DNA of 38,597 nucleotides from a bacterium (GCA_046759165.1 JBHIBS010000016.1:1-38597); one strand, 5' to 3'. Shown: positions 1 to 21,719, counted from the stretch's first letter. Notes: generated from the letters alone by a model not told the origin. Numbers and translations are program-made.

Positions 1-156
1 CTGCTGAAAGGAGAGAAAGTTACTTGCCTTTTTCATTCATTTTGCGAAAGAACCCGCTTCGCTTCACTCGGTGACCTGCCTGCTCACCAACTCGCAGGCG
101 TCGCTGACCCGTTCCTCCTTATTCGTCGGAACAGCAACCCTCCTTCCTTTTACTAA

Positions 157-3100
157 TTATACCAAGGGTTCCATCTCTAAAGCCGGATGCTTCACCTTCT
201 GCAAAAATGAGAAAAGTTCCTCCGTTGTGGTAGCCACTTCCTCATCACCAATCTTATCTATCAGGTCAGGAACTCCTTCCTCTTCGCACCTCTTCTTAAA
301 TTTCTCTCCCAGCGCTTCTTTGAGCCCTTTTGTCATCCAGACTATGCGCCTTATCCCCCCGTCGGCAGAAATAAACTTTCTGCTCACGATATACAGCCTC
401 CCAATACCCATAAAGCCTGGAGTCTGCGTTCCTCCACCGACGGAACCAGCCAGGGTGCTAAAAGTCATGCCTATTGGAGTCATACCAGCAAATTCCCTAT
501 TTACGATCATAAAACCATTCATCTCAGGAAGTATAGCAATGATGCACTCAAAACAACCACAATTTTTAATCAATATAGCGTTGGCGAAATAGCAATGCTC
601 ATCTGAGGTAGTTAAATTGTAAACATATTTGTACTGGTTTTTGTTCTGAATCTTTTCGACTTTGGTTACAATGTCTAAGAAATAGTCAGTTTCCATTAAA
701 GTTTTAAACATATCTTGCTTCTCTTGAGGTAATGCATCTATGACTTTCGCTACATTTGCCATAACAGGTCTCGACCTTGCTGTTTCGTAGTAGAAATGAG
801 TTGTAGGACTTAATATCTTTCTACTTTCAGGAAGTTCAGCTATAGCCTTTCCAAACGAAAAAGGCAAAACCTGTTCCTGAGACTTGTTAATCTTATTCTC
901 AGATGATAGGAATCTGATATCCTCCAAAATCTCTCTCTTTCTTGGATGCTTAACAGGGATCTGCTCGGCAAACTTAACTAAGTTAGTTCCGTGTAGTTCA
1001 ATCTTATAGACCGATCCTGCCTTCCGGAGATTGCCAATAACCCCTAATCTTTTTAAGAGTAATTGAAGGTGGAATGCAGCTCTTTTTTCTTCTATGCAAA
1101 GATAGGCCTCGCCAATATCCCATTTGTTTCTGTATTTTCTTAACCTTACACTTCCATCACCATCGAAAATACCGGCTAAATAGGAGACAATAAAATTTTG
1201 AGGAAGACTAAGCAACTTGGATAGATTCCACTTACCCTTAGCACCAACTTTTATTCCAAAGTAATTGAGAATAACTCCTAACAGTGGATTATTAGTGTGG
1301 CATAAGAAACATGTCTTAGTAGAATTAATTTTTCTTCCCCTAATTTCCCCTTTACTTTTACCTTTAAGTCTAACGTTTATTGACTTCTCGGGAAAGATTT
1401 GCCGATAAGTATTTGTGTATACAGAAATTAGCTCTTCATTTGTATTTATAAAGTCAATCCAGTATTCATACTTACCCCAGCGAGAAATTGAACCGTCAGA
1501 GGTGATTAGACCTGCCAGGTAGAATAGTTCGGGACTCAGAGCTTCAGGGAGATTGACTACAGAAGCAGCACGAGCAATTTTTCTAACCGACTTTTTAACC
1601 TCCTCCCAATCCTCACCTAAATCCTCTACAATAAGCTTAAGAGATTTTAAAGTAAAGCCTTTTAATCTTGGATTATATCTTCCCCAATTCAATTTTTTCC
1701 AGGCTGAAGACAGCGAGCCGTATTTTGCCTTTAATTTATGCTTGATTAAAGTTATCAGCGCTTCGTCCCTCACCCAAAAATCGTCAGGAATGAGGTTGAT
1801 AATCTCTGGGGTTTGGCTGGGTAATTCTAATTTTCTAAATGATATCGTCCTATCCCCGGGCACAACTTTCTCACTCATAACCCAACTCAAACCTTCTGAC
1901 CTATCTATGGCAATTTTGTGCTCCCTGGTCAAAATAATCTCTGCACCTGATTTGGTAGTCAGTTTTATTAAATTTTTTGGGGCAGGAAATTTCTGTATTG
2001 CTACTATTTTCTCTGGCACAGTCTTGCCATTCCTCAAAGTCAAAACTGAGGATTTGGTATATTCTTCTCTTCCTTGATGTTTATTTATAAACTCACCGAC
2101 TTTAACCACTTGTCTATCAATAATTACTTCTGTATTTCCAACACAACAACTCGTCTCTGGAAATGTGATTATAGAATATCCGTGAAATCTTTCCAGGGTC
2201 TTATTTGACTTTTGATAGATGAAATCGTTCACTCCTTTCCACTCACCCCTCACTGGGTCAAGACATTCTCCTTTCTTAACCGGCTGATTCGGTCCTGTGG
2301 GATTCAGCTCATAACATGCGCGAGCATCCAGCCAGGTATAAGCGCCACATAAGCCCAATCTTTCCGGCTTAACTATGCAAACATGATTCGGAGCGAACGA
2401 TTGGCAGAGACTGCAAGAGTAGAGCGTATCCACGCTCTCATCGGTCATTCCTGCCATACGCTCATCACGTTCCTCATAAACTTTTTTGGCCTGGGAAATG
2501 TATTTTTCCACATCTTCCTGTCGAGTGTAAATGGTAACCTGAGCCTTATCCACTATTGCCCCGAAGGTGTCGTGAAGGCGAGCGTGAATAATTACGCCAA
2601 AATGGTGAATCTTAAAACCCTTCTTCTTCGCGTCTTTACTAATCCTTAACCAATTAAGGTCTCTTTGACCCATGTGGAATATCCCCATAGCCTCGTTCAA
2701 AAACGTATGAATCTGCCGTTCTAATATAGGCTCAAAATCCTTCTGCATCTTTCTGCCAGCTACCTCCACATAAATTCCCAAAGGCATAGCGCTGCCTTCC
2801 TGAGCTTTATCTATTTCCGGGCCAATTAATTCTATCTTTCCATCTTCCACTTTATCCAAGTCTCTCGTAGTAACGTACTCAAAAGCTTTGGAATATTTCC
2901 CTCCAAACTGGACATACATCTGTTCTTTTCTCACGGTTTCCCCTTCAAAGGCAGCAGAATAGGCAACGGGAATAGGAATTTCCGTTACCCTCACCTTAAC
3001 GCCACGCACCTGAATAGAAGTAGGAATCAGTTTCTTATGATCGAGTTCTTTCACTAAATGTTCATAGGTGCAGATACCACTAGGCCTTATTTCAGGGATA

Positions 3101-3921
3101 TCGGTATCTGCGATTACAGGAAAACCCATGTTCATAGCTCCTGCGCCAGTAGCATACTTCACATCATCCAGTTCGCCTAAAGTCAAACCAAAGGCGAATA
3201 CTCTATTCTGACAATATTTGAGACACTTCAGCGCCTCTCCCTTCTTATGGCCACCAAAGGTAAGAGCCGCTCTGATAGCCCAGTTGAGCGGATAGATTCC
3301 AGTTATAGTATCGCGTCCGTAAGGAACTATATATGTCTCCCAACCCATCTGGACATTTTCTTCTTTAAGTTGGTCGATTATACTCCTACCATTATGATTA
3401 GAACCAACAAAACATATAATATTTCTCTTCTGAAGTTCTCTGACTATCTCCACCGCCATTTTGTTATCCGGAGCCGCACCTAATATGGCAGCAAAACCGG
3501 GCATCCTGCCATCTACCAGTTGTATCCCATAACTTCTCATCCAGGTATCTGTATAGAAACCCACACAATCGGGTTGGGGTTCTTTGCCATACAGATATCT
3601 CAGGGCAACAATAATTTCTTCTCCAAAAAGGGTGGCTATTCCGGAATCGAGAGCGTCACCAAGATAAGGAAGCCAGAGAGATTTACTCGGCTCCTCTCTC
3701 AAAAGCGACTTTGCTTCTTTTAACACTGGTATCATATCCCCCAAAGTCCTGACTTCAATTCCCAAGAGAGCATAAGCCATAGGGAGAAAGAAACCTGTCT
3801 CGGGAAACTCAACTTTCTGGTCTTTTCCTTTCTCCTTTATAGCTCTATTTAGAAACTCTTCAGCTTCTCCAACAATTTTTCTCCCGCCCCTGATGGCTGC
3901 TCCTGCGACTATTTTCGACAT
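157..3921 (-). CDS. acsB: Acetyl-CoA synthase (bacterial-type ACS, A-cluster subunit), intein-containing precursor; about 725 aa after splicing
   Basis: Full bacterial N-terminal domain, LVDG..PG motif, A-cluster ligands CSLCQSFAPNHVC and GLCGA, and TS|CGCFE split by an insert; ends in ADGGI.RIVWM. 1254 aa minus 529 aa gives 725 aa, the normal AcsB size. Confidence 0.97.
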   Translation of the reverse strand: MSKIVAGAAIRGGRKIVGEAEEFLNRAIKEKGKDQKVEFPETGFFLPMAYALLGIEVRTLGDMIPVLKEAKSLLREEPSKSLWLPYLGDALDSGIATLFGEEIIVALRYLYGKEPQPDCVGFYTDTWMRSYGIQLVDGRMPGFAAILGAAPDNKMAVEIVRELQKRNIICFVGSNHNGRSIIDQLKEENVQMGWETYIVPYGRDTITGIYPLNWAIRAALTFGGHKKGEALKCLKYCQNRVFAFGLTLGELDDVKYATGAGAMNMGFPVIADTDIPEIRPSGICTYEHLVKELDHKKLIPTSIQVRGVKVRVTEIPIPVAYSAAFEGETVRKEQMYVQFGGKYSKAFEYVTTRDLDKVEDGKIELIGPEIDKAQEGSAMPLGIYVEVAGRKMQKDFEPILERQIHTFLNEAMGIFHMGQRDLNWLRISKDAKKKGFKIHHFGVIIHARLHDTFGAIVDKAQVTIYTRQEDVEKYISQAKKVYEERDERMAGMTDESVDTLYSCSLCQSFAPNHVCIVKPERLGLCGAYTWLDARACYELNPTGPNQPVKKGECLDPVRGEWKGVNDFIYQKSNKTLERFHGYSIITFPETSCCVGNTEVIIDRQVVKVGEFINKHQGREEYTKSSVLTLRNGKTVPEKIVAIQKFPAPKNLIKLTTKSGAEIILTREHKIAIDRSEGLSWVMSEKVVPGDRTISFRKLELPSQTPEIINLIPDDFWVRDEALITLIKHKLKAKYGSLSSAWKKLNWGRYNPRLKGFTLKSLKLIVEDLGEDWEEVKKSVRKIARAASVVNLPEALSPELFYLAGLITSDGSISRWGKYEYWIDFINTNEELISVYTNTYRQIFPEKSINVRLKGKSKGEIRGRKINSTKTCFLCHTNNPLLGVILNYFGIKVGAKGKWNLSKLLSLPQNFIVSYLAGIFDGDGSVRLRKYRNKWDIGEAYLCIEEKRAAFHLQLLLKRLGVIGNLRKAGSVYKIELHGTNLVKFAEQIPVKHPRKREILEDIRFLSSENKINKSQEQVLPFSFGKAIAELPESRKILSPTTHFYYETARSRPVMANVAKVIDALPQEKQDMFKTLMETDYFLDIVTKVEKIQNKNQYKYVYNLTTSDEHCYFANAILIKNCGCFECIIAILPEMNGFMIVNREFAGMTPIGMTFSTLAGSVGGGTQTPGFMGIGRLYIVSRKFISADGGIRRIVWMTKGLKEALGEKFKKRCEEEGVPDLIDKIGDEEVATTTEELFSFLQKVKHPALEMEPLV
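562..2148 (-). mobile_element. Intein with LAGLIDADG homing endonuclease (529 aa, precursor residues 592-1120) in acsB
   Basis: Block A CCVGNTEV, block B LTREHKI (TxxH), LAGLIDADG motifs YLAGLITSDGS and YLAGIFDGDGS, blocks F/G YVYNLTTSDEHCYFANAILIKN followed by +1 Cys. Removal restores FPETS-CGCFEC. Confidence 0.96.
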
Positions 3922-3958
3922 ACTGGCCCTCCATCACAAGAAAATTAACCTAATACTA

Positions 3959-4717
3959 TCAAATTATACCTGTTTTAATTTCACTTATTTTCCTACTCAA
4001 GTCTTTCCTTTTACAATCCATACAGATTTCGAAAATCTCTTCTGGCAATTCAATTTTTCCCTTTAATTGTTCCAGTTCCTTTTTAGGGGCAAAATATTTA
4101 CCACAAACTTTACAACTTTTAAGTTCCAATTCTGTGTGCCAGGTTTCCAAGATTCTTTTATCAAACATCTCTTTAATCTTAATTGCCCCCGTGGGACAAA
4201 CTGAACTGCAAGCCCCACAACCTATGCAGACATCAGATTGAGCTTGGAAAGGCGTCTCCACCTCTCTATTTGCCCCCCTATTTATGAATCCTATCACATT
4301 GGCTCCAATTATCTCTTGACAAACACGCACGCAAAGGCCACACAATATGCATTCCTCCTCTTCCTTTTTGAACCTTACCTCTTCAACTTCCACCTTCCTG
4401 GCTAAATCCTTTACTTTCTCTGCCTCTGGAGAGCGAGCCAGAAGAAGCTCAATAATCAACTTTCGACTCTCTACCACCCTCGGGGAACCAGTGTTCACCT
4501 CCATGCCCTCTTCTGCTAAACACGTACAGGAAGCTGTCAGTCCTGGCTTCATTCCTTTAACTACCTCTACTACACAGACCCTGCAAGCACCATAGGGGCT
4601 GACTCCTTCGTGATAACATAGAGTAGGAATTTCGATTCCCAGTTTCTTAGCCGCGTGGAGAACCGTTGCGCCCTTCTCCACTGTAACTTTCTTACCATCA
4701 ATACTTAGATTTAACAT
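3959..4717 (-). CDS. HydA/NuoG N-terminal-like iron-sulfur subunit ([2Fe-2S] plus 2x[4Fe-4S], C-terminal CxxC...CxxC), with no H-cluster or Mo/W domain
   Basis: IPTLC...GACRVC...ASC [2Fe-2S] motif; CILCGLCVRVC and CIGCGACSSVCP; CKVC and CMDC tail; only 252 aa. Confidence 0.88.
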   Translation of the reverse strand: MLNLSIDGKKVTVEKGATVLHAAKKLGIEIPTLCYHEGVSPYGACRVCVVEVVKGMKPGLTASCTCLAEEGMEVNTGSPRVVESRKLIIELLLARSPEAEKVKDLARKVEVEEVRFKKEEEECILCGLCVRVCQEIIGANVIGFINRGANREVETPFQAQSDVCIGCGACSSVCPTGAIKIKEMFDKRILETWHTELELKSCKVCGKYFAPKKELEQLKGKIELPEEIFEICMDCKRKDLSRKISEIKTGII

Positions 4718-4726
4718 TTATTTCTC

Positions 4727-6631
4727 TCAGTCTACCTCTACTGCATCAAAATTGCAAATTTCAAAACATATCCCGCACTTAATGCACCTGCTTTCACCTA
4801 TCGAATGCGGCTTCTTCTTCTCTCCAGAAATTGCCCCTTGAGGACATTCCTTCAGGCAGAGCCCGCAACCTGTGCACTTCTCTCTATTTATTGAGTAGTG
4901 AATTAAATCTGGACAGATATGAGCCGGGCATTTCTTATCCCTTATGTGAGTTTCGTACTCATTACGAAAATATCGCAGAGTAGTCAATACTGGATTGGGT
5001 GCTGTTCCTCCCAATGCACAAAGTGAAGCATCTTTAACTACTTTGGCCAGACTCTCCAGCAATTCTAAGTCACTCTCTTCCGCTTTGCCCTTACTTATAT
5101 CATCGAGAATCTCCAACATCCTCTTTATGCCTTCTCTACAAGGCGTACATTTTCCGCAGGATTCATCTTTTGTGAAATTAAGAAAATACTTAGCCACATT
5201 TACCATACAAGTATCTTCATCCATAACCACCATTCCACCCGAACCCATCATCGAACCCGCTTGAGTTAACTGTTCGTAATCGACCTCCAAGTCAAGCAAT
5301 TCTGAGGGAATACAACCACCTGAAGGACCTCCTGTCTGCACTGCCTTGAACTTCTTACCTTCAGGAATTCCTTCTCCAATATCATAAATCATCTCCCTCA
5401 ATTTAATCCCCATGGGAACTTCTACCAATCCTGTGTTATTAATCTTCCCTACCAAAGAGAAAACCATTGTGCCTTTACTTTTTAAAGTCCCCATCTTAGA
5501 ATACCAATTTGCTCCCCCGGCTATGATGACAGGAACATTTGCCCATGTCTTGACATTATTAATATTTGTCGGCTTATCCCATAGTCCTCTTTCTGCAGGG
5601 AAGGGTGGCCTTGGTCTGGGCTCACCTATTCTGCCCTCAATAGAAGCTAATAACGCGGTCTCTTCTCCGCAAACGAAAGCTCCTGCTCCCTGGCTTATCC
5701 TTACTTTGAAATCGAATCCAGAATTAAATATGTTTTCTCCCAGAAGACCATATTCTTCAGCCTGCTCAATTGCCCGCTCGACACTGTGATAAGCCAAGGG
5801 ATACTCGTTCCTCACATAAATATATCCATCATGGGAACCTATGGCATATGCTCCAATAACCATGCCTTCCAAAATGGTATGAGGATCTCCCTCAAGTATG
5901 CTCCTATCCATATATGCGCCAGGGTCGCCTTCATCAGCATTACAAATTATATATTTCGGATCTCCCGGGGCATCTCGACAGAATTTCCATTTAAGACCCG
6001 TAGGAAATCCTGCTCCCCCTCTGCCCCTTAAACCGGAGTTCTTTATCTCTTCAATTACTTGTTCTTCCTTGAAGCCGGAGAGAACTCTGGCTAGAGAGAA
6101 GTAACCACCTCGAGCTATATATTCTTCTATATTATCAGGGTTCATAAAACCACAGTTTCTCAAGGCAATCTTCTTTTGTTTCTTATAAAATGGGAGCTCT
6201 CGATATAATGGAATATCTTTTCCATCTTTTCCCGTAATAGAATATCCTTTTTTTATATTTTCTATTATGAACTCTTCTTCTTCCAGTCTACAAAGGGCCC
6301 ATTCTTTCCTCATTTTCCCTTGGGCAAGTCCGAGCACCAAATCCCTCGCCTTTTCAGGATCCATTTCAGAATAGATTATCCGCGATTTCCCGGGTTGCCA
6401 GACATCAACCAATGGTTCTTTCTGGCAAAATCCAAGACAGCCTGTCTTGCAAACTACGGCATCAATTCCTTGTTTTTCTATTTCCTCAATTATCGAATCA
6501 AATACTGCCCGGGCACCTGTGGCTATTCCGCAAGTTCCCAACCCCACATTTATTTTTGTCCTCTTGGGGTAAAGAGAGTCTAAACCCTTAGCTTTTAATC
6601 CTTCAAGGTCTTTCAGGTTTTTTATTTTCAT
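4727..6631 (-). CDS. HydB/NuoF-like FMN/NAD-binding subunit (electron-bifurcating-type architecture)
   Basis: GLRGRGGAGFPTG, NADEGDPGAYMDR, GAFVCGEET, GGPSGG, SCGKCTPCREG...LC; N-terminal thioredoxin-like Fe-S domain; C-terminal 2x[4Fe-4S]. Confidence 0.93.
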   Translation of the reverse strand: MKIKNLKDLEGLKAKGLDSLYPKRTKINVGLGTCGIATGARAVFDSIIEEIEKQGIDAVVCKTGCLGFCQKEPLVDVWQPGKSRIIYSEMDPEKARDLVLGLAQGKMRKEWALCRLEEEEFIIENIKKGYSITGKDGKDIPLYRELPFYKKQKKIALRNCGFMNPDNIEEYIARGGYFSLARVLSGFKEEQVIEEIKNSGLRGRGGAGFPTGLKWKFCRDAPGDPKYIICNADEGDPGAYMDRSILEGDPHTILEGMVIGAYAIGSHDGYIYVRNEYPLAYHSVERAIEQAEEYGLLGENIFNSGFDFKVRISQGAGAFVCGEETALLASIEGRIGEPRPRPPFPAERGLWDKPTNINNVKTWANVPVIIAGGANWYSKMGTLKSKGTMVFSLVGKINNTGLVEVPMGIKLREMIYDIGEGIPEGKKFKAVQTGGPSGGCIPSELLDLEVDYEQLTQAGSMMGSGGMVVMDEDTCMVNVAKYFLNFTKDESCGKCTPCREGIKRMLEILDDISKGKAEESDLELLESLAKVVKDASLCALGGTAPNPVLTTLRYFRNEYETHIRDKKCPAHICPDLIHYSINREKCTGCGLCLKECPQGAISGEKKKPHSIGESRCIKCGICFEICNFDAVEVD

Positions 6632-7095
6632 TTATATCTCTTTAATATTTCTGGCACTTTTTCTTGTTTTAATCGACCATACGCATCTTCGTCAGTTCTA
6701 ATTACAGGAGCCAAACTACAACATCCAATACAATGAACGGTCTCTAAAGAAAACTTCAAATCGCTGGTCGTCTCGCCAGCCTTTATCTCCAACTCTCTTT
6801 CCAGTTTTTCCAGAATCCTCCTTCCTCCCTTTACAAAGCAGGCAGTTCCCAGACAAACATTTATTAAGTGGCGTCCTCTCGGCTTCAGGCTAAAGGCAGT
6901 ATAGAAAGTAGCAATACCATAGACCCGAATTAAAGGAACATCCAGTTTTTTGGCTACCAGCTTCAAGGCATCTTCGGGCAAATAACCATATTCAAGATTT
7001 ATTTCCTGCAACACAGGAATCACTCCGCCCTTCTCCGGCCTATATTTGTTTATCCTTTTCTCTAAGTCTGTTCCTTTATTCTTCTCGTCAACCAT
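6628..7095 (-). CDS. HydC/NuoE-like [2Fe-2S] subunit
   Basis: YG+ATFY..F, VCLGTACFVKG and CIGCCSLAP motifs; 4-nt overlap with the next gene. Confidence 0.93.
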   Translation of the reverse strand: MVDEKNKGTDLEKRINKYRPEKGGVIPVLQEINLEYGYLPEDALKLVAKKLDVPLIRVYGIATFYTAFSLKPRGRHLINVCLGTACFVKGGRRILEKLERELEIKAGETTSDLKFSLETVHCIGCCSLAPVIRTDEDAYGRLKQEKVPEILKRYK

Positions 7096-7099
7096 CTTT

Positions 7100-7621
7100 T
7101 TATCCTTTGATTATCTTCCCGTCCTTTTTGAAGCCGACCAGAAATTCTGCTTTCTTTAATTTAGCTATCCCTTCTATAGAAAGAAGCTGTAAGGCCTTTG
7201 TAGGACACGATTTAACACAAGCAGGCTCCTCGCCTTTTTCCAATCTTTCCAGACAAAGGTCACACTTGATAATTACCTTTCCTTCCCGATTAACATTCAA
7301 AACTCCAAAAGGACAAACGAGAACACACCACTTGCAGCCGATACACAAATCTTCTTTAATAATGACTGGCTCCCCAGGCGCTAACTTCTCCAGCGCCTTT
7401 GTGGGACAAATTTTGATGCAGGGGGCATCCTCACAATGTCGGCATTGTAAAGGAACAGATAAGTCCCCGTAAGCTTCCACCTTCACCCGAGTCTGTGAAA
7501 GGGGTTCCTCTTTAATGGCTTTGAAAAGGGCTTTGGACTGCGAATGTTCTATAGCACATTGCAGTTCACAAGTCTTACAACCCAGGCACTTATCCAAATC
7601 AACATAAAGAATTGTTTTCAT
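7100..7621 (-). CDS. cooF: CooF-like 4x[4Fe-4S] electron-transfer protein
   Basis: CLGCKTCELQC, CRHCEDAPCIKICP, CIGCKWCVLVCP and KCDLC...CVKSCP motifs; directly after cooS. Confidence 0.88.
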   Translation of the reverse strand: MKTILYVDLDKCLGCKTCELQCAIEHSQSKALFKAIKEEPLSQTRVKVEAYGDLSVPLQCRHCEDAPCIKICPTKALEKLAPGEPVIIKEDLCIGCKWCVLVCPFGVLNVNREGKVIIKCDLCLERLEKGEEPACVKSCPTKALQLLSIEGIAKLKKAEFLVGFKKDGKIIKG

Positions 7622-9543
7622 ACCAGTACCTTCTCCTTAACTTCGTACATCACAGGCTTTAACTTTAAAACCTCCCTTTTCTTATTTATATGTCCAATCA
7701 TCAGGTGGGCAGCCTTGACGGGATCTGATTCAAAGGCGAAGTTTGCTCCCACAATCTCTTCCAATTTCCTGGTAAGTAACTCGGTTACCTCTTTGCTTCC
7801 CAAAATTGGAAAGGGATTCCCCAGCACAGTAAACACCCCAGAAGCCACAACATAGAATGCGATAGAAACTGCTTTCTCGCTCATCCATTCTGGAGCAGCC
7901 CCGGCAACAGGCAATTCGGATATATCATCACCCAAACCGCCTTCGGCAACAACATTACAAAGAGTAATTAGAATTCTGCTATTATCTACGCAAGAACCAA
8001 CATGGAGAACCGGTGGAACTCCCACTGTCTCGCATATTTCCTTGAGACCTTTTCCTGCATATTGAAAAGCAGCTTCTGGTTTCAAAAGTCCTGCCTTAGC
8101 GTCAGCAATAGCCGAGCAACCAGTGACCACCACCAGGACATCATTCTTAATTAACTCCTTAGCCATCTCCACATGACCCCAATCATGCTTTATCTTGGGA
8201 TTATTACAGCCAACAATACCTGCTGCGCCTCTTAATCTTCCACTGATTATACCATCGTTCAAGGGACGATAAGTTGCTCGATATTTTCCTCCCAGAAATT
8301 TAAACACGCTCTCCGCAGTAAATCCCGCCACCAAATCCATTTTCTCATCAGGTATATTAACTTTCTCTTTCACTCTACTCTCAAAATTCTCCACTGCCAT
8401 TCTTACAATCTTTTTAGCAATAGGCAGAGCTTCCTCTTCTTTAAACTCCACATGTTCTGCTCCTGGAAATTTTGCCTTAGGAGAAGTGGAGACAAGCTTT
8501 GTATGGAAACATTTAGCTACCGAGGAGAGAGCAGGCATTATACACTGAACATCCACCAGCATTAAATCGACCGCTCCCGTGGCGATTGCCAGCTCTTGCT
8601 GGAGAAAATTTCCTGCAATAGGAATGCCATGGCGCATCAAAATTTCATTAGCAGTGCAACAAATTCCAGCCAGGTTAATCCCTTTTGCTCCATTCTTTTT
8701 GGCAAGTTCGATGAGCTCTGGGTCCTGAGCAGCTGCCACAATAACATCTGAAAGCGTCGGTTCGTGACCATGGACTACCAAGTTGACTTCATCCTCTTTA
8801 AGTACACCTAAGTTTGCCATAGCGCGGATGGGCTTGGGGATTCCAAAAAGTACATCGGAAAGTTCTGTGGCAATCATAGAACCACCCCATCCGTCTCCTA
8901 AAGCAGTTCTCATACCATGGGTTATGAGATTTTCACAATCGTTATCCACACCAATGTGCGTGCGGTGCATCACTTCCACAATCTCCCTGTCGATTCCTCT
9001 AGGCATAATCCCCAGCTTCCGCCATAAAGCTTGTCTCTTCTCTGGAGCGCGGTGAGAAAATTGAAGCTCTCCGTGCTGTTGACCAAACTCAGAAAACACT
9101 TTTTCCGCTAACTCCAATGCAATCTCTTTCTTATCTCTCCCATTGCTTTTTATCCCCAACTCAGTGGCGAGGGAAAGCAATTTCTCTTCATCTTTAACCC
9201 CATAACCATTCGTCTTTCCCTGGGCAGTCAAGAGCAACGTATGGGCAATGTCCCGTCCATGGTCAGAATGGGCAGCAGCCCCGGCAGCAATCATACGGAT
9301 TAAATTTCTGGCTGCAATAATTTCTGCCGTAGCCCCACAAACTCCCTTTTGAGGACCCTCTCCAAAGGGGTCAATCCGGCAGGGCCCTAAAAAGCAGTTC
9401 CTGCAGCAAAGACCGAGTTCACCAAACCCACACTGCGGAAGCATCGCTTCATATCTATCCCAAGCAGTATCGAGTCCCTCTTTTTCGGCAATTTCCAATA
9501 GTTCCTGGCTCGCCTTATCTATGGACTTCTCTTCCTTTCTCAT
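7618..9543 (-). CDS. cooS: Anaerobic Ni-Fe carbon monoxide dehydrogenase catalytic subunit (CooS/AcsA)
   Basis: CGFG..GLCCRNC..GPC (D/B clusters), AAHSDH, HGHEP, GICCTANE, DVQC, GCNN, GCS, GSCVDN and EWMSEKA. Confidence 0.97.
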   Translation of the reverse strand: MRKEEKSIDKASQELLEIAEKEGLDTAWDRYEAMLPQCGFGELGLCCRNCFLGPCRIDPFGEGPQKGVCGATAEIIAARNLIRMIAAGAAAHSDHGRDIAHTLLLTAQGKTNGYGVKDEEKLLSLATELGIKSNGRDKKEIALELAEKVFSEFGQQHGELQFSHRAPEKRQALWRKLGIMPRGIDREIVEVMHRTHIGVDNDCENLITHGMRTALGDGWGGSMIATELSDVLFGIPKPIRAMANLGVLKEDEVNLVVHGHEPTLSDVIVAAAQDPELIELAKKNGAKGINLAGICCTANEILMRHGIPIAGNFLQQELAIATGAVDLMLVDVQCIMPALSSVAKCFHTKLVSTSPKAKFPGAEHVEFKEEEALPIAKKIVRMAVENFESRVKEKVNIPDEKMDLVAGFTAESVFKFLGGKYRATYRPLNDGIISGRLRGAAGIVGCNNPKIKHDWGHVEMAKELIKNDVLVVVTGCSAIADAKAGLLKPEAAFQYAGKGLKEICETVGVPPVLHVGSCVDNSRILITLCNVVAEGGLGDDISELPVAGAAPEWMSEKAVSIAFYVVASGVFTVLGNPFPILGSKEVTELLTRKLEEIVGANFAFESDPVKAAHLMIGHINKKREVLKLKPVMYEVKEKVLV

Positions 9544-10282
9544 CTAGCCTCCTGATTAGATTCTCCTTAATTTCTTTTATTTCCCCAATAATAGAAACTG
9601 TCACTTTATCAACTAATTTATTATTATACCAAATGAAACCCAAGATTTCAAAATCGGAAATATTCTTTCTAATGAAATCTATATCTTCACGACCACGAAC
9701 CTTATTGCCCACAACAAAAACCCTCTCTATTTTCAAATCTCCTGCCAGAGACTTAATTCTGAGCGCCGTCTCGATGCTCCTCATGCTCGGCTCCACAACT
9801 ACAATGAGACTATCCACTCCTTCTGCCGTTCCTCTTCCCAAATGTTCTATCCCTGCTTCCATATCAAGAATTACAACATCTTCCCGACTAAAAAATAGGT
9901 GGGAAAGTATTGCTCTAAGAAAGGCATTTTCAGGACAGAAGCATCCACTTCCACCCTTCTTTACCCTTCCCATGAGTAGGACTTTTATGCCCTGATGCTC
10001 TCTAGAAAACTTATCAGGAATATCGTCCACCCTGGGATTGAGCTTGAAGTACCCTCCCATTGTGCCGGGTTCAACACCTGTCCTCTCTTCAATCAGTTGC
10101 TTCATCTCCACAAGGGGAACTATCTTCTCAGGTTCAGGAAAACCAAGAGTGGCTGCCAGGTTACTGTCGGGATCGGCATCGATAGCTATAACTTTCTTCC
10201 CATCCTGAGTAAAACTAAGGGCCAATCCTGCAACCAGAGTAGTCTTTCCCACTCCACCCTTGCCGGTTATTGCCAATTTCAT
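9515..10282 (-). CDS. cooC: CooC/AcsF-type nickel-insertion ATPase
   Basis: GKGGVGKTT, DADPDSNL, GCFCPEN (CxC) and DMEAGIEHLGRGT. Confidence 0.94.
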   Translation of the reverse strand: MKLAITGKGGVGKTTLVAGLALSFTQDGKKVIAIDADPDSNLAATLGFPEPEKIVPLVEMKQLIEERTGVEPGTMGGYFKLNPRVDDIPDKFSREHQGIKVLLMGRVKKGGSGCFCPENAFLRAILSHLFFSREDVVILDMEAGIEHLGRGTAEGVDSLIVVVEPSMRSIETALRIKSLAGDLKIERVFVVGNKVRGREDIDFIRKNISDFEILGFIWYNNKLVDKVTVSIIGEIKEIKENLIRRLDEKGREVHR

Positions 10283-10313
10283 CTTTTTCCTCTACTCCTA
10301 ACATTTTTACCAT

Positions 10314-10493
10314 TTAAAAGATAGTTTGTGAAGGACTTGTGGAATTTCAGCCAAAGAACGAGGACGATGCTTTCTCTCCCAAGCAAGAATTTGTTTGACC
10401 CCGCATTGCGGGGGAGTTTATTTTTGCGCCCTGCAAAGTCCAAAGTTCTTTGGCGTCAAGAAATTCCGTAGGAACGAACAAACTATCTTTTAA
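10314..10493. repeat. Palindromic intergenic element, copy 1 (180 bp, short form, perfect 16-bp terminal inverted repeats)
   Basis: TTAAAAGATAGTTTGT (10314-10329) pairs with ACAAACTATCTTTTAA (10478-10493). Inner pairs are GGAATTTC/GAAATTCC and GCCAAAGAAC/GTTCTTTGGC, with a central CCCCGCA-T-TGCGGGG hairpin. Confidence 0.88.
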
Positions 10494-11361
10494 TTGCTAT
10501 TTCTCTTTTCACGAGGTCTTGATATCCCTTATGAATTTTTTGAGTGACAGGGCCCGGCTTTCCCTTGCCGATTCGGCGACCATCGACTTCTACAAGGGGC
10601 ATAATTTCAATTAAAGAACTGGTAAGGAAAGCCTCCTCTGCTCCCATCAGCTCATCTAAGAAGACTCTTCTATTATATGCCTTAATCCCCAGATTGGGAA
10701 CCAACCCCAGGACGACTCCTCGTGTTATCCCTGGCAATAATCCCGACTCTTCTGGTGGTGTAATTACAACACCCCTTTTCACCAAAAAGATATTGCTCGT
10801 CGAAGCTTCAGTAACATCGCCTAAAGTATTGAGCAAAATTCCCTCATCAACTTGCTTCGCTTGTGCCTCTTTTCTGGCCAATATATTATTTAGAAAGTTG
10901 AGCGACTTCAATCTGGATACAGGCGATGCCTGATTCTGTCTGATCTCAACTACTGTAGCTTTCCATCCTTTTCTATACTTTGAAGGAGAAAAGGGCTTGA
11001 ACTCTCTTGCCACTATTACCAGAGTGGCTGAGGATTTATGTTTAGAAATTAAGCCAGGCTCGGAAACTCCTCTCGAAACAGTGAGTCTTATGTAGGCCTC
11101 GGAAACACCATTTATTTTCAGTATTCTCTTAATTATATTTTTTAGATCTTTTCGAGTATAAGAGAGGGAAATTTCTATTTCCTTTGCCGAGCGGAAAAGC
11201 CTGTCTAGATGGTCTTCCAGGCGAAACACTTCACCCGAGTAGGCGCGCATTGTCTCAAATAGACCATCCCCATAGAGAAATCCCCTATCGAAGACAGAAA
11301 TTTTTGCCCGGGTAAGATTCACAAAAGAACCATTGAGAAAGATTTTTTCCATATTCGGCAC
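10483..11361 (-). CDS. PLP fold-type IV enzyme, probably 4-amino-4-deoxychorismate lyase (PabC-like); an IlvE-like aminotransferase is not excluded. Start may be 11352.
   Basis: DRGFLYGDGLFET, LKSLN, E...SNIF and LPGITR; directly after pabB. Confidence 0.8.
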   Translation of the reverse strand: MPNMEKIFLNGSFVNLTRAKISVFDRGFLYGDGLFETMRAYSGEVFRLEDHLDRLFRSAKEIEISLSYTRKDLKNIIKRILKINGVSEAYIRLTVSRGVSEPGLISKHKSSATLVIVAREFKPFSPSKYRKGWKATVVEIRQNQASPVSRLKSLNFLNNILARKEAQAKQVDEGILLNTLGDVTEASTSNIFLVKRGVVITPPEESGLLPGITRGVVLGLVPNLGIKAYNRRVFLDELMGAEEAFLTSSLIEIMPLVEVDGRRIGKGKPGPVTQKIHKGYQDLVKREIAIKR

Positions 11362-11388
11362 TTTCCCGACTACATCCCTCCTTTTCGG

Positions 11389-11436
11389 GAGGACTCCAAA
11401 AGACTCGCCTTAGAGGACTTCAAAAGGCTCGCCTTA
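11389..11436. repeat. 24-bp tandem duplication (2 copies, 22/24 identical)
   Basis: GAGGACTCCAAAAGACTCGCCTTA followed by GAGGACTTCAAAAGGCTCGCCTTA. Confidence 0.85.
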
Positions 11437-12885
11437 TAAACTGCTTGGATGAGTAAGCACCTCTCTCCCTTTCCCCATAGTCAGAGTTTCTATCAAAGCT
11501 CTGGCTTTGTGTAACGTCTCTTCATATTCTATCTCGGGATCGGACTCGGCTACAATTCCGCCGCCAGCATGGAAGTATATCTTTCCAGCAGTGATTACCA
11601 TAGTTCTAATTACAATGTTGAGGTCGGTTTCGCCATTGAACCCTATGTATCCGATAGAGCCAGTGTAAACACCCCTCTGATTTGGCTCCACCTCATCAAT
11701 TATTTCCATAGCCCTGATCTTTGGCGCCCCTGTTATCGAACCTCCCGGAAAACATGCTTTTAAACAATCGATGTGCTCTTTACCTTCTTTTAGCACCCCC
11801 TCCACTGTAGAAACTAAGTGAAATACTGTAGGATGAGCCTCCAGAGTGATGAGTTCAGGTACTCTCACAGTTCCGTATTCGCAAACTCTTCCCAGATCAT
11901 TTCTTTCCAGGTCAACTATCATTATCAACTCTGCCCTATCCTTCTCGCTCTCCAAGAGTTCCCTGGCTAACCTCCTATCTTCGAAGTTATCTCCACCCCT
12001 GGGACGCGTGCCTTTAATAGGACGAGTCTGGACCTTTCTTCCGGATATGCGCAAGAACCTTTCAGGAGAAGCACTTACTATAGTAATTTCGGGAAAATTT
12101 AAGAAACTTGCAAACGGTGCAGGGTTAATTCGACGAAGGCGCTCATATATGGTGAAAGGTGAAGCCATTTGACAGCAGCTAAATCTCTGAGAAAGGTTAA
12201 CCTGAAAGATGTCTCCTGCCCTGATATACTCCCTGGCTGTCTGTACAGCGTTGAGATAGGCTGACCGTGAAAAATTCGACATTATCTCTGGAATATCATA
12301 CTCTTTCCCAACTGAAGAATCTTCTTTGGAAGATTTCTTCAATATATCTAGCGCCTCCTGCAAGCGCAACTCGGCTCTCCTTCTTATTTCACCAGGTTCT
12401 CTTTCCGGAAGACCCGAAGAAGAGATGAAAAGTCTACCCGTCAAGTGGTCGAAGGATAACACCAGGTCATAAAAACCTAAATAGCAGTCGGGAAGTTCTA
12501 AATCGTCAACGCTCTTTCTGGGCAGTTTTTCAACAAAATGGCATAAGTCATAGCCAAAATAACCCACTGCTCCACCCAGAAAGGGAGAGTAACTAGAAGA
12601 AGCTAACCTGTACTGAGAAATGAGCCTTTTGAGGACACCAAAAGGATCTCCTGAAAATCTCTGACTCTGGCCTCCTTCACAAATTTCAATTTGTTCTCCT
12701 TTACTCTTGAACACGAGAAAGGGGTCACTACCCATGAACGAATACCTACTGAAATCGCCTACAGAACCCCCGCTTTCGAGGAAAAAACTGTAACGGCTAT
12801 CCAGAAAGAGTCTAAATAGCTTCTGGGGAGGAGACAGAGGAGGAATCTCTCCTATCCATTGTAAAGGCCTGACTAACTCCTTCAT
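11434..12885 (-). CDS. pabB: Aminodeoxychorismate synthase component I
   Basis: GDIFQVNLS, NPAPF, SASPERF, TRPIKGTRPRG (PIKGT is PabB-type), AEL.MIVDLERNDLGR and FPGGSITGAPK. Confidence 0.88.
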   Translation of the reverse strand: MKELVRPLQWIGEIPPLSPPQKLFRLFLDSRYSFFLESGGSVGDFSRYSFMGSDPFLVFKSKGEQIEICEGGQSQRFSGDPFGVLKRLISQYRLASSSYSPFLGGAVGYFGYDLCHFVEKLPRKSVDDLELPDCYLGFYDLVLSFDHLTGRLFISSSGLPEREPGEIRRRAELRLQEALDILKKSSKEDSSVGKEYDIPEIMSNFSRSAYLNAVQTAREYIRAGDIFQVNLSQRFSCCQMASPFTIYERLRRINPAPFASFLNFPEITIVSASPERFLRISGRKVQTRPIKGTRPRGGDNFEDRRLARELLESEKDRAELIMIVDLERNDLGRVCEYGTVRVPELITLEAHPTVFHLVSTVEGVLKEGKEHIDCLKACFPGGSITGAPKIRAMEIIDEVEPNQRGVYTGSIGYIGFNGETDLNIVIRTMVITAGKIYFHAGGGIVAESDPEIEYEETLHKARALIETLTMGKGREVLTHPSSL

Positions 12886-18569: not shown

Positions 18570-18597
18570 TACTTTCCTCCTCTATCCTTCGGCAAGA

Positions 18598-21585: not shown

Positions 21586-21621
21586 CCCCTCTTCCTTTCT
21601 GCTTTCGCAATTCACTGGTCG

Positions 21622-21707: not shown

Positions 21708-21719
21708 CTTTTTTTTCTG

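What the first reader, a model, noticed from the sequence alone, without database searches (positions are those of the whole stretch)
3959..9543. Hydrogenase-less HydABC-type module sandwiched between CODH and ACS: candidate electron-bifurcating CODH/ACS
Seen: cooS-cooF-hydC-hydB-short hydA-acsB with overlaps or gaps of at most about 40 nt. The HydB homologue has the extra N-terminal Fe-S domain, C-terminal 2x[4Fe-4S], and the ADEGDPG, AFVCGEE and GGPSG motifs. The HydA homologue has no H-cluster or Mo/W domain and lacks the His-Cys3 cluster (LLLARSP). Established: those HydB features typify bifurcating HydABC enzymes, and in model acetogens CODH/ACS uses free ferredoxin. Inference: CODH, via CooF, is the catalytic input/output, coupling CO2/CO directly to NAD(H) plus ferredoxin.
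Basis: partly seen in the sequence, partly recalled or inferred. Interest (0 to 1): 0.78.

Follow-up and report, generated by a model that had tools for sequence, protein, structure and literature searches.

The report
NADH/ferredoxin bifurcating module inside CODH/ACS operon
Between the CO dehydrogenase gene and the acetyl-CoA synthase gene of a carbon-fixation operon sit four genes for a flavin and iron-sulfur module of the electron-bifurcating Bfu family, which probably ties the CO2/CO step to both NADH and ferredoxin; the same layout recurs in many uncultured bacterial groups but has never been tested at the bench.

Summary
On the minus strand lie cooC, cooS, cooF, bfuC (nuoE-like), bfuB (long nuoF-like), a short bfuA, and acsB, separated by overlaps or gaps of at most 37 nt. 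All quoted motifs are present.

The module is a Type-2 member of the BfuABC (HydABC) family. BfuB carries every extra site that non-bifurcating NuoF lacks. BfuA, BfuB, BfuC and CooF each match a subunit of the solved bifurcating tungsten aldehyde oxidoreductase WorABCSL (PDB 9MQX), with CooS in the place of the catalytic subunit.

Among the 80 closest BfuA loci from public genomes, 24 hold cooS and 16 hold acsB, against 2 to 4 for other Wood-Ljungdahl genes. Four loci repeat the window's exact gene order. The nine full-length CooS proteins that sit beside acsB, including the window's, form one side of a branch (support 100/99).

A CO-linked "Codh-Bfu" (also written CodhABCSF) is already in print as an unpurified prediction (Schut 2022; PNAS 2025), but only as a stand-alone CODH. 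I found no paper that places it inside CODH/ACS. This is therefore a new variant of a predicted kind.

Bifurcation and physical assembly remain inferred, because complex modelling was unavailable. Separately, acsB carries a 529-residue intein at its active-site Cys-Gly-Cys motif.

The parts
9515..10282 (-). cooC-like Ni-insertion ATPase (255 aa), first gene of the block
   Evidence: CbiA/ParA-type P-loop Pfam hits. It has 58% identity over its full length to the gene in the same position upstream of cooS in L002.
7618..9543 (-). cooS/acsA, Ni-Fe CO dehydrogenase catalytic subunit (641 aa)
   Evidence: TIGR01702 scores 700.8 bits against a cutoff of 478. The Cys and His residues C38, C46, C47, C50, C55, C69, H258, C295, C334, C446, C476 and C518 are conserved in 18 of 18 aligned CooS. 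Best PDB matches are 6t7j, 6ytt and 9fzy. It falls in the 9-row ACS-linked side of the CooS tree with support 100/99.
7100..7621 (-). cooF-like polyferredoxin (173 aa, 16 Cys for four [4Fe-4S] clusters), the proposed wire from CooS to BfuA
   Evidence: Matches Fer4_11. All 16 Cys are invariant in 21 of 21 and 24 of 24 aligned sequences. It matches WorS (9mqx_E) end to end, residues 1-166 against 1-151 of 152, E 9.5e-25, and also HycB3. A cooF gene lies directly upstream of bfuC in 16 of 80 loci.
6628..7095 (-). bfuC (hydC/nuoE-like, 155 aa), holds the C1 [2Fe-2S] cluster
   Evidence: PF01257 at 1.5e-51. C81, C86, C122 and C126 are conserved in 97-98% of 66 sequences. The eight best PDB hits are all C subunits of Bfu-family enzymes.
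4727..6631 (-). bfuB (hydB/long nuoF-like, 634 aa): N-terminal thioredoxin-like domain (B5 site), FMN/NAD(H) site, B1 [4Fe-4S], B2 site, C-terminal B3 and B4 [4Fe-4S]
   Evidence: Motifs read and Pfam hits. The nine best PDB hits (E 7e-233 to 7e-187) are all B subunits of Bfu enzymes, and seven of them also cover the N-terminal domain. Non-bifurcating FdsB and NuoF match only about residues 143-567, with E of 9e-121 or worse. Conserved ligand candidates are C492/C495/C498/C538 (100%), H562/C568/C573 (93-94%) and eight C-terminal Cys (81-91%) of 67 sequences.
3959..4717 (-). short bfuA (252 aa): A1 [2Fe-2S], two [4Fe-4S] (A2 and A4 by analogy), no His-ligated A3 cluster, C-terminal Cys4 site and terminal helix
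   Evidence: Translation and Pfam. Invariant Cys are C34/45/48/64, C123/126/129/133, C164/167/170/174 and C202/205/232/235. The best PDB sequence hit is WorA 9mqx_A, E 4e-47, over residues 3-243. The AlphaFold2 model has mean pLDDT 79.7 and a helix at 233-250. Foldseek ranks 9mqx_A first with TM 0.80/0.82 over 244 columns, the only match with a high TM-score on both lengths among the 50 rows shown.
157..3921 (-). acsB, acetyl-CoA synthase (A-cluster subunit) with the N-terminal CODH-docking domain, interrupted by an intein
   Evidence: NF040764 scores 1002.7 bits against a cutoff of 800, in two stretches. Pfam finds CODH_A_N, CdhC and ACS_CODH_B_C together with Intein_splicing and LAGLIDADG_3.
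562..2148 (-). 529-aa intein with a LAGLIDADG homing-endonuclease domain (AcsB aa 592-1120), inserted directly before the Cys-Gly-Cys motif
   Evidence: Intein-free homologues in L002, L003 and L039 read ..(E/M)TSCGCFEC.. at this point. The window reads ETS, then the intein (which begins with Cys and ends ..KN), then CGCFEC.

Best explanation
The block encodes a CODH/ACS whose CO dehydrogenase is wired to a Type-2 BfuABC electron-bifurcating core, rather than relying only on free ferredoxin.

Proposed path of electrons:
1. CooS interconverts CO2 and CO at its Ni-Fe C-cluster.
2. Electrons leave through the surface cluster of the CooS dimer into the four-cluster polyferredoxin CooF.
3. CooF docks on the zinc-finger and C-terminal-helix end of the short BfuA.
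4. They then pass through BfuA clusters A4, A2 and A1 to the FMN, B1 and C1 site of BfuB and BfuC.
5. One electron pair is exchanged with NAD(H) at the FMN. The other is exchanged with ferredoxin through the C-terminal B3 and B4 clusters.

By analogy with HydABC and WorABCSL the overall reaction would be 2 CO + 2 H2O + NAD+ + 2 Fd(ox) <-> 2 CO2 + NADH + 2 Fd(red) + 3 H+. AcsB docks on the same CooS through its N-terminal domain, so the CO made or consumed is the CO of acetyl-CoA synthesis or cleavage.

Shown here:
- Gene content, cofactor-binding motifs and family membership of each subunit.
- One-to-one correspondence with subunits A, B, C and S of WorABCSL.
- Conserved synteny with cooS and acsB.
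- The ACS-type identity of the CooS.

Inferred:
- Physical assembly, stoichiometry, simultaneous use of NAD(H) and ferredoxin, and direction of flow.
- My arithmetic with the potentials tabulated by Schut 2022 (CO2/CO -520 mV; physiological Fd about -500 mV and NAD about -280 mV, mean -390 mV). CO oxidation is downhill by about 130 mV, roughly -50 kJ per 2 CO. The reverse reaction is feasible only if the CO/CO2 ratio is held near 10^-4, which channelling CO to the A-cluster could provide.
For: 1. Tight operon. Overlaps or gaps are at most 37 nt. The only terminator-like site on the coding strand lies inside acsB, and total sites do not exceed the shuffle expectation.

2. BfuB has the B2, B3, B4 and B5 sites that non-bifurcating homologues lack, according to passages of Li et al. 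2025. This rests. BfuC's eight best PDB hits are all Bfu enzymes.

3. BfuA lacks A3 and A5, which is how Schut 2022 define Type 2. It matches WorA over its full length in sequence (E 4e-47) and in predicted fold (TM 0.80/0.82), including the four Cys that bind zinc in WorA and a terminal helix. CooF matches WorS end to end. The PNAS 2025 passages state that CooF is the WorS homologue and predict a CodhABCSF built like WorABCSL.

4. Synteny over 80 loci:
- cooS is present in 24, acsB in 16, either in 28 and both in 12.
- bfuA is directly followed by acsB in 12 loci.
- cooF is directly followed by bfuC in 16, cooS by bfuC in 8, and bfuA by cooS in 6.
- The exact window order recurs in L002, L003, L039 and L058.
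- The controls fhs, folD, metF and metV appear in 2, 3, 2 and 4 of 80.
- The acsB-linked loci carry record labels from nine phylum-level groups.

5. In L002 and L003 the genes after acsB are acsC, acsV, a cooC-like gene (31-37% tblastn identity to the window's CooC; no NCBIfam hit for the L002 copy, and the L003 copy was not scanned), acsD and acsE. These are complete acs operons with the module inserted.

6. All 12 loci holding both genes show exactly one cooS hit. The 9 full-length CooS from acsB-containing loci, including the window, form one side of a branch with UFBoot 100 and SH-aLRT 99. The CooS next to the module is therefore the ACS-type CODH.

7. AcsB keeps the CODH_A_N docking domain.

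8. Pfam finds no hydrogenase, formate dehydrogenase or Hdr gene anywhere in the 38.6-kb window.
Against: - No Codh-Bfu enzyme has been purified. The PNAS 2025 passage says so.
- CO is a stronger reductant than both acceptors, so CO oxidation needs no bifurcation. Schut 2022 call this unexplained.
- 52 of 80 related loci have neither cooS nor acsB. In those loci the same BfuA type sits with pyruvate-oxidoreductase subunits (11-14 loci), Hdr-like, glutamate-synthase-like or NiFe-hydrogenase genes.
- In the BfuB tree the ACS-linked rows are scattered: 8 label changes for 10 rows, and 46 of 500 shuffles do as well. BfuB sequence therefore does not predict the partner.
- Four loci (L006, L014, L032, L061) have a cooF-bfuCBA unit with no cooS in the stretch held, and L004 has bfuCBA followed by a cooF-like gene, also with no cooS. 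The module is therefore not always in cis with a CODH.
- The window ends 156 nt after acsB, and no acsC start is visible.
- AcsB must first splice out its intein to be active.
- Whether the B5 and B2 sites hold Fe-S clusters or zinc cannot be read from sequence.
Confidence: 0.6

Rival explanations
1. The CooF-BfuCBA unit is a soluble NADH:ferredoxin redox-balancing module that is only co-regulated with the Wood-Ljungdahl genes. It adjusts the NADH and ferredoxin pools needed by FolD, MetF and CODH/ACS, and it does not bind CooS.
For: Four loci (L006, L014, L032, L061) carry cooF-bfuCBA with no cooS in the stretch held, and L004 has bfuCBA followed by a cooF-like gene without cooS. BfuB phylogeny does not follow partner type.
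Against: Per Schut 2022, all characterised Bfu enzymes use a third substrate delivered through BfuA. The linkage is specific to cooS and acsB (24 and 16 of 80) rather than to other pathway genes (2-4 of 80). The module sits between cooS and acsB with 4- to 37-nt spacing. CooF corresponds to WorS, whose role is to wire a catalytic subunit to BfuA.
Confidence: 0.15
2. It is a non-bifurcating CO:NAD+ oxidoreductase. Electrons from CO go through CooF and BfuA to the FMN and reduce NAD+ only. The ferredoxin-side domains of BfuB are not used or only store electrons.
For: CO at -520 mV can reduce NAD+ without help (potentials). The minimal FMN, B1 and C1 set also occurs in non-bifurcating enzymes.
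Against: BfuB keeps the complete B2, B3, B4 and B5 sites. The eight C-terminal Cys are conserved in 81-91% of 67 relatives. Deleting B3 and B4 abolished bifurcation in the T. kivui enzyme, as cited. The homologous WorABCSL, whose substrate is also low-potential, is described as reducing ferredoxin and NAD together (abstract).
Confidence: 0.1
3. The module serves another enzyme, such as methylene-THF reductase MetFV or an enzyme encoded elsewhere (hydrogenase, formate dehydrogenase or Hdr). Its position next to cooS and acsB is only operon packing.
For: metV and metF lie directly upstream of cooS in L003, and metV or metF occur near bfuCBA in L025, L054 and L079. The same BfuA type pairs with POR, Hdr-like and NiFe-hydrogenase genes in other loci.
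Against: In the window metF and metV are 13-17 kb away. metF and metV occur in only 2 and 4 of 80 loci. The cooF-bfuC or cooS-bfuC junction is conserved in 24 loci. No hydrogenase, Fdh or Hdr gene is in the window.
Confidence: 0.08

Closest known systems
WorABCSL, the electron-bifurcating tungsten aldehyde oxidoreductase of Acetomicrobium mobile (PDB 9MQX; PNAS 2025, PMC12318220, passages read)
   Same: The non-catalytic subunits correspond one to one.
- BfuA to WorA: E 4e-47; fold TM 0.80/0.82; no A3 cluster; Cys4 zinc-finger site; terminal helix.
- BfuB to WorB: E 4.5e-195.
- BfuC to WorC: E 2e-35.
- CooF to WorS: E 9.5e-25, end to end.

   Different: The catalytic subunit is a Ni-Fe CODH (CooS) instead of the tungstopterin WorL. 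The CooS in turn is the partner of an acetyl-CoA synthase. BfuB is closer to the NiFe-hydrogenase HydB 7t2r_B (E 7e-233) than to WorB.
Codh-Bfu / CodhABCSF, predicted from genomes of Acetohalobium arabaticum, Clostridium cellulovorans and Sporomusa silvacetica (Schut 2022, PMC9304861, sections and passages read; PNAS 2025, passage read)
   Same: A BfuABC core plus CooS and CooF, with CO proposed as the third substrate. It is Type 2, so BfuA lacks A3 and A5.
   Different: The published cases are stand-alone CODHs: 4 sequences, said to occur only in Firmicutes, with the CODH genes lying between bfuB and bfuA, and proposed for CO oxidation or detoxification. That paper contains no occurrence of 'Wood-Ljungdahl' or 'acetyl-CoA synthase'. 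Here the order is cooS-cooF-bfuC-bfuB-bfuA-acsB inside an acs operon. The CooS is of an ACS-linked clade, and the arrangement spans nine labelled phylum-level groups.
Classical bacterial CODH/ACS (Moorella thermoacetica 1MJG/1OAO; Clostridium autoethanogenum 6YTT; 9FZY)
   Same: CooS matches these CODH subunits (E 1.5e-214 for 6ytt_B, 2.9e-214 for 9fzy_B, 7e-157 for 1mjg_A). AcsB has the N-terminal docking domain and the A-cluster motifs.
   Different: From my own knowledge, those enzymes exchange electrons with free ferredoxin, and their operons have no nuoEFG-like genes between acsA and acsB. The window inserts cooF-bfuCBA there. The best PDB hit of the window's CooS is in fact the monofunctional Thermococcus CODH2, 6T7J.
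Non-bifurcating NuoEFG-type modules (complex I Nqo1-3, NAD-dependent formate dehydrogenase FdsABG, Hox diaphorase)
   Same: The FMN/NADH domain, the N3-like [4Fe-4S] and the NuoE-type [2Fe-2S]. One NCBIfam NuoF model is passed (NF010120, 405 bits against a cutoff of 389).
   Different: Their F subunits lack the N-terminal domain, the B2 site and the C-terminal 2x[4Fe-4S], and they match only about residues 143-567 of BfuB. TIGR01959 falls below its cutoff (508 against 559). No membrane-arm nuo genes are in the window.

Membership tests
BfuABC (HydABC) electron-bifurcating family | BfuB with the 51-kDa FMN-binding domain, the NuoF Fe-S domain and a ferredoxin-type 4Fe-4S domain. Schut 2022 list the InterPro domains IPR011538, IPR019554, IPR019575 and IPR017896; my mapping of these numbers to Pfam names is recalled. 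| tested here: met
   PF01512 at 2.8e-46, PF10589 at 1.1e-34 and a C-terminal Fer4 pair. The soluble-ligand-binding domain was not reported by Pfam at E <= 0.001, but that region aligns without a break to 7t2r_B and 9n5u_B.
BfuABC (HydABC) electron-bifurcating family | BfuB carries the B2, B3, B4 and B5 sites that are absent from non-bifurcating homologues (Li 2025 passages) | tested here: met
   The N-terminal domain, residues 27-100, aligns to 7t2r_B, 9bov_B and 9n5u_B. H562, C568 and C573 are present, as are the eight C-terminal Cys C586 to C626. Whether B5 and B2 hold Fe-S or zinc cannot be told from sequence.
BfuABC (HydABC) electron-bifurcating family | BfuC with a NuoE-type [2Fe-2S] cluster, encoded next to bfuB | tested here: met
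   PF01257 at 1.5e-51. C81, C86, C122 and C126 are conserved. The gene overlaps bfuB by 4 nt. The top eight PDB hits are Bfu C subunits.
BfuABC (HydABC) electron-bifurcating family | Simultaneous, mutually dependent reduction of NAD+ and ferredoxin by a third substrate | not testable with these tools
   This needs an enzyme assay. No Codh-Bfu has been purified.
Type 2 Bfu / WorABCSL-like architecture (Codh-Bfu, CodhABCSF) | BfuA keeps A1, A2 and A4 but lacks the A3 and A5 clusters | tested here: met
   There are four Cys for the [2Fe-2S] and 4 + 4 Cys for two [4Fe-4S]. LLLARSP stands where the His-Cys3 motif would be. The C-terminal Cys4 aligns to the four Cys that are a zinc finger in WorA.
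Type 2 Bfu / WorABCSL-like architecture (Codh-Bfu, CodhABCSF) | A separate catalytic subunit and a WorS/CooF-type polyferredoxin are encoded with bfuABC | tested here: met
   cooS and cooF lie directly upstream. CooF matches WorS at E 9.5e-25 over its full length. The same linkage is seen in 24 of 80 loci.
Type 2 Bfu / WorABCSL-like architecture (Codh-Bfu, CodhABCSF) | Physical docking of the polyferredoxin on the C-terminal end of BfuA | not testable with these tools
The only support is indirect: the BfuA model has a terminal helix at 233-250 and superposes on WorA.
Bacterial CODH/ACS | A Ni-CODH subunit with intact cluster ligands and an AcsB with the N-terminal CODH-docking domain and the A-cluster motif | tested here: met
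   TIGR01702 and NF040764 both score above their cutoffs. The CooS Cys and His are conserved in 18 of 18 sequences. CODH_A_N is present. The Cys-Gly-Cys motif is intact only after intein removal.
Bacterial CODH/ACS | The corrinoid Fe-S protein (acsC, acsD) and the methyltransferase (acsE) lie in the same cluster | tested here: inconclusive
   The window ends 156 nt after acsB with no acsC start. In L002 and L003 acsC, acsV, acsD and acsE follow acsB.
Respiratory complex I N-module (NuoEFG) | Association with membrane-arm nuo genes; a NuoF without extra Fe-S domains; a NuoG with the His-ligated cluster and the molybdopterin-like domain | tested here: not met
   No nuoA-N genes in the window. 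BfuB has the extra domains. The 252-aa BfuA lacks the His cluster and the C-terminal domain. TIGR01959 and TIGR01973 fall below their cutoffs.

The most novel reading that the evidence does not exclude
In a broad set of uncultured anaerobes (nine labelled phylum-level groups in this sample), the carbonyl branch of the Wood-Ljungdahl pathway is run by a CODH/ACS-Bfu supercomplex that reduces CO2 to enzyme-bound CO with one NADH and two reduced ferredoxins per two CO. This would be possible only because CO is channelled to the A-cluster at a CO/CO2 ratio near 10^-4. Run in reverse, the complex would recover NADH as well as reduced ferredoxin from acetyl-CoA cleavage. That would halve the low-potential ferredoxin cost of the most demanding step of the pathway. 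It would also change energy budgets for acetogenesis, for syntrophic acetate oxidation and for life near the thermodynamic limit.
Probability: 0.3. Interest if true: 0.8.

Novelty: new variant of a known kind. Interest (0 to 1): 0.6.

Why it matters
Textbook energy budgets for the Wood-Ljungdahl pathway assume that CO2 reduction to CO costs two reduced ferredoxins, the scarcest currency of anaerobes.

If CODH/ACS can be hard-wired to a Bfu core, half of those electrons could come from NADH. In the oxidative direction, NADH could be harvested directly. Either case changes ATP-yield estimates for acetogens, acetate oxidisers and many uncultured subsurface lineages.

It would also give a physiological reason for the so-far puzzling pairing of a bifurcating core with a very low-potential substrate.

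The hypothesis is directly testable. The arrangement is conserved, and a stand-alone version sits in a cultured methanogen, Methanospirillum stamsii (L047).

Tried and rejected
- **Complex modelling.** Complex prediction for BfuA (alignment A1) with CooF (alignment A2) was answered as unavailable. No multimer model was made, so docking stays untested.
- **Single origin of the ACS-linked module.** Rejected. In the BfuB tree (67 rows, quick method) the CODH+ACS label needs 8 changes for 10 rows, and 46 of 500 shuffles do as well.
- **CooF tree.** With 21 rows, the bfuC-adjacent CooFs cluster (2 changes; 1 of 500 shuffles as low), but only 2 of 18 inner branches are well supported. I put no weight on it.
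- **Promoter and terminator scan of 1-11500.** Counts sit at the shuffle expectation (23 against 19.9; 8 against 9.8). The scan is uninformative beyond showing no terminator on the coding strand inside the block.
- **Rfam over the whole window.** 0 matches.
- **Taxonomy.**
  - Ribosomal protein L13 has 78-97% identity only to unnamed or 'MAG: bacterium' records, apart from one partial record labelled Candidatus Aminicenantes (88%).
  - The AcsB exteins are 90-93% identical to unnamed records and 77-80% identical to records labelled Candidatus Omnitrophota.
  - The phylum is left open.
- **CooS type from PDB similarity.** Not decisive. The best hit is the monofunctional Thermococcus CODH2 (6T7J), followed by two CODH/ACS entries.
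- **Literature.**
  - Searches found no paper proposing a Bfu-linked CODH/ACS.
  - Passages read in PMC7325909, PMC8671834, PMC5736913, PMC6085454, PMC10689502, PMC10482914 and bioRxiv 2021.07.06.451242 were irrelevant.
  - PMC13056359, a genomic-context survey of CODH, has no occurrence of bifurcat, NuoF, NuoE, Bfu or HydB.
  - Supplementary tables of Schut 2022, which list the Bfu gene clusters, were not opened and could hold ACS-adjacent cases.
- **Collections.** The closed collections metagenome contigs and viral contigs were not searched. Only the best 80 of 580 confirmed genome-contig loci were kept, so the frequencies describe the closest relatives only.

Full report
**What is in the sequence.** All genes of interest lie on the minus strand.

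| Gene | Coordinates | Junction with the gene before |
|---|---|---|
| cooC-like ATPase | 9515-10282 | - |
| cooS | 7618-9543 | 29-nt overlap |
| cooF-like polyferredoxin | 7100-7621 | 4-nt overlap |
| nuoE/hydC-like | 6628-7095 | 4-nt gap |
| long nuoF/hydB-like | 4727-6631 | 4-nt overlap |
| short hydA/nuoG-like (252 codons) | 3959-4717 | 9-nt gap |
| acsB | 157-3921 | 37-nt gap |

- Family scans agree with these names. CooS scores 700.8 bits on TIGR01702 (cutoff 478), and AcsB scores 1002.7 bits on NF040764 (cutoff 800).
- PF01257, PF01512 and PF10589 identify the NuoE-like and NuoF-like proteins.
- The quoted motifs ADEGDPG, AFVCGEE, GGPSG and LLLARSP are all present.
- The rest of the window is a folate-type Wood-Ljungdahl neighbourhood: fhs, metV, an lpd-like gene, lplA-like, a radical-SAM gene, metF, fchA, folD, then pabB and pabC just upstream of cooC, and glyA further on.
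- Pfam finds no hydrogenase, formate dehydrogenase or Hdr gene in the 38.6 kb.

**What the module is.**

*BfuB.*
- The nine best solved relatives (E 7e-233 to 7e-187) are all B subunits of structurally characterised Bfu/HydABC-family enzymes. They include NiFe-HydABCSL, NfnABC, FeFe-HydABC and WorABCSL.
- Seven of those nine matches also cover the N-terminal domain, and all nine reach the C-terminal domain.
- Non-bifurcating FdsB and NuoF match only about residues 143-567, with E of 9e-121 or worse.
- Residue-level alignments show the N-terminal thioredoxin-like domain, the FMN/NAD region, and the His-x5-Cys-x4-Cys stretch after the N3-like cluster, and two CxxCxxCxxxC motifs at the end.
- Across 67 relatives the candidate ligands are conserved: C492/C495/C498/C538 at 100%, H562/C568/C573 at 93-94%, and the eight terminal Cys at 81-91%.
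- According to passages of Li et al. 2025, the B2 to B5 sites are exactly what non-bifurcating homologues lack, and B3/B4 are required for bifurcation.

*BfuC.* Its eight best solved relatives are all Bfu C subunits.

*BfuA.*
- It has four Cys for a [2Fe-2S], two CxxCxxCxxxC motifs and an invariant C-terminal CxxC...CxxC. It has no His-ligated cluster.
- This is the Type 2 pattern of Schut et al. 2022: A3 and A5 are absent, and electrons enter through A4 from extra subunits.

**The closest solved enzyme.**
- BfuA's best sequence match is WorA of the bifurcating tungsten aldehyde oxidoreductase WorABCSL (9mqx_A, E 4e-47, residues 3-243), including the four terminal Cys.
- An AlphaFold2 model of BfuA has mean pLDDT 79.7 and is weak at residues 143-161.
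- Foldseek ranks 9mqx_A first with TM 0.80/0.82 over 244 columns. It is the only match with a high TM-score on both lengths among the 50 rows shown.
- CooF matches WorS end to end (9mqx_E, E 9.5e-25) and also HycB3 of the CO2 reductase filament.
- The PNAS 2025 passages say that in WorA these four Cys form a zinc finger. They also say that a terminal helix recruits WorS, and that electrons run S4-A4-A2-A1 into the BC core.
- Those passages add that a predicted 'CodhABCSF' of Sporomusa silvacetica should be built the same way, with CooF as the WorS homologue, but that it has not been purified.
- Schut 2022 had already named 'Codh-Bfu': 4 sequences, Firmicutes only, a stand-alone CODH.

**Comparative evidence.**
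- An alignment of 30 BfuA relatives retrieved 580 confirmed loci from the species-representative genome collection, and the best 80 were kept.
- I mapped the window's proteins onto them with tblastn and counted:
  - cooS is in 24 of 80 loci, acsB in 16, either in 28 and both in 12.
  - bfuA is directly followed by acsB in 12 loci, cooF by bfuC in 16, cooS by bfuC in 8, and bfuA by cooS in 6.
  - Other pathway genes scored in the same run are rare: fhs 2, folD 3, metF 2, metV 4.
- The window's exact order recurs in L002 (Clostridia), L003 (Planctomycetia), L039 (Phycisphaerae) and L058 (Hydrogenedentota).
- Permuted orders occur in loci labelled Anaerolineales, Firestonebacteria, Spirochaetota, Verrucomicrobiota, Acidobacteriota, 'delta proteobacterium' and in one unclassified bacterium.
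- In L002 and L003 acsB is followed by acsC, acsV, a cooC-like gene, acsD and acsE.
- Each of the 12 loci holding both genes has exactly one cooS hit.

**Which CooS.**
- I built a tree of the 18 CooS with at least 85% coverage. Seven partial ones were dropped: L034, L038, L040, L042, L043, L044 and L045.
- The nine from acsB-containing loci, including the window, fall on one side of a branch with UFBoot 100 and SH-aLRT 99. The root is unknown.
- The CODH next to the module is therefore the ACS-type CODH, not a detoxifying CODH that happens to be nearby.
- AcsB also keeps its N-terminal CODH-docking domain.

**Evidence that limits the claim.**
- BfuB phylogeny does not follow the partner. ACS-linked rows are scattered, and the window's BfuB sits in a well-supported set of 8 rows (4 CODH, 3 with neither gene, 1 CODH+ACS).
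- In the 52 loci without cooS or acsB, I clustered 340 flanking ORFs and scanned 18 proteins (cluster representatives plus a few extra members) against Pfam.
  - Pyruvate-oxidoreductase subunits appear in 11-14 loci.
  - The other clusters include HdrA/MvhD-like, HdrB-like, glutamate-synthase-like and NiFe-hydrogenase genes.
- The module is therefore a general adaptor, as Schut 2022 proposed.
- Four loci (L006, L014, L032, L061) have cooF-bfuCBA without cooS in the stretch held. L004 has bfuCBA followed by a cooF-like gene, also without cooS.

**Mechanism and energetics (inference).**
- By analogy with WorABCSL, electrons pass from CooS to CooF to BfuA (A4, A2, A1), then to the FMN, B1 and C1 site. 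From there they go to NAD(H) and, through B3 and B4, to ferredoxin.
- I used the potentials tabulated by Schut 2022. CO oxidation to a mean acceptor potential of about -390 mV is downhill by about 130 mV.
- The reverse reaction needs a CO/CO2 ratio near 10^-4. Channelling CO to the A-cluster could maintain such a ratio. This is my arithmetic, not a measured result.

**Literature and novelty.**
- Inoue 2019 noted NuoEFG-like COGs in Wood-Ljungdahl contexts of Ni-CODH (passage).
- Suzuki 2018 noted nuoEF near a CODH/ACS cluster (passage).
- Searches found no paper proposing a Bfu-wired CODH/ACS.
- Schut 2022 contains neither 'Wood-Ljungdahl' nor 'acetyl-CoA synthase'.
- I therefore class this as a new variant of a predicted, uncharacterised kind.

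**Side finding.**
- AcsB carries a 529-aa LAGLIDADG intein (nt 562-2148), inserted directly before the Cys-Gly-Cys motif.
- Long, intein-bearing AcsB proteins are common in public data.
- One search found no paper that mentions both an intein and this enzyme.

Noticed in passing
window 562-2148 (minus), within acsB 157-3921: AcsB is split by a 529-aa intein with a LAGLIDADG homing-endonuclease domain. It is inserted directly before the Cys-Gly-Cys motif, so the +1 Cys is the first Cys of that motif. Intein-free homologues read ..(E/M)TSCGCFEC.. at this point.
   Followed up: partly
proteins P0126-P0244: Of the 119 listed AcsB relatives, 69 are at least 850 aa long, and the listing shows intein or LAGLIDADG Pfam domains for the long entries. 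The list favours these because they also match the intein. A crude motif test puts 35 of the 69 at the same site. Eight keep an intact Cys-Gly-Cys, so their insert lies elsewhere. About 14 are 1600-1800 aa. Several are named only 'LAGLIDADG family homing endonuclease' by their source. A search for intein together with acetyl-CoA synthase or AcsB listed no paper with both among the 10 best-ranked of 305.
   Followed up: partly
L047 (Methanospirillum stamsii chromosome), also L060, L068, L077: A cultured methanogen carries cooF-cooS-bfuC-bfuB-bfuA-cooC. Three other Methanomicrobiales contigs show the same bfuB-bfuA-cooC end. This is a tractable organism in which to test the stand-alone Codh-Bfu prediction.
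   Followed up: no
L005, L007, L009, L010, L013, L018, L021, L041, L048, L055, L057 and others: The same full-length, zinc-finger-type BfuA sits directly downstream of the four pyruvate/2-oxoacid:ferredoxin oxidoreductase subunit genes (POR_N in 11 loci, the TPP subunit in 14). This matches the published Por-Bfu prediction but spans several phyla.
   Followed up: partly
L028, L061, L072, L079: Two bfuCBA sets lie in tandem or close together in one locus.
   Followed up: no
window 14085-15371 (minus): A 428-aa fusion of an OMP-decarboxylase/hexulose-phosphate-synthase-type domain with an RraA-like aldolase domain. It sits between the folate genes and pabB.
   Followed up: no
window 17697-22382 (minus): metF and metV are separated by a radical-SAM gene, a lipoate-protein ligase-like gene and a dihydrolipoyl-dehydrogenase-like gene. 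From memory, an lpd gene also sits in the Wood-Ljungdahl cluster of clostridial acetogens.
   Followed up: no
window 12890-13951 and 37000-38568 (minus): Two ORFs of 353 and 522 aa have no Pfam match at E <= 1e-5.
   Followed up: no
window 9651-9623 (minus), inside cooC: An 11-of-12 sigma-70-like match with an extended -10 TG lies about 80 nt upstream of the cooS start. It may be an internal promoter, but total promoter-like matches in the region do not exceed the shuffle expectation.
   Followed up: no
window 1-156: The window ends 156 nt after acsB with no acsC start in any frame of the coding strand. In L002 and L003 acsC begins about 20 to 50 nt after acsB.
   Followed up: partly
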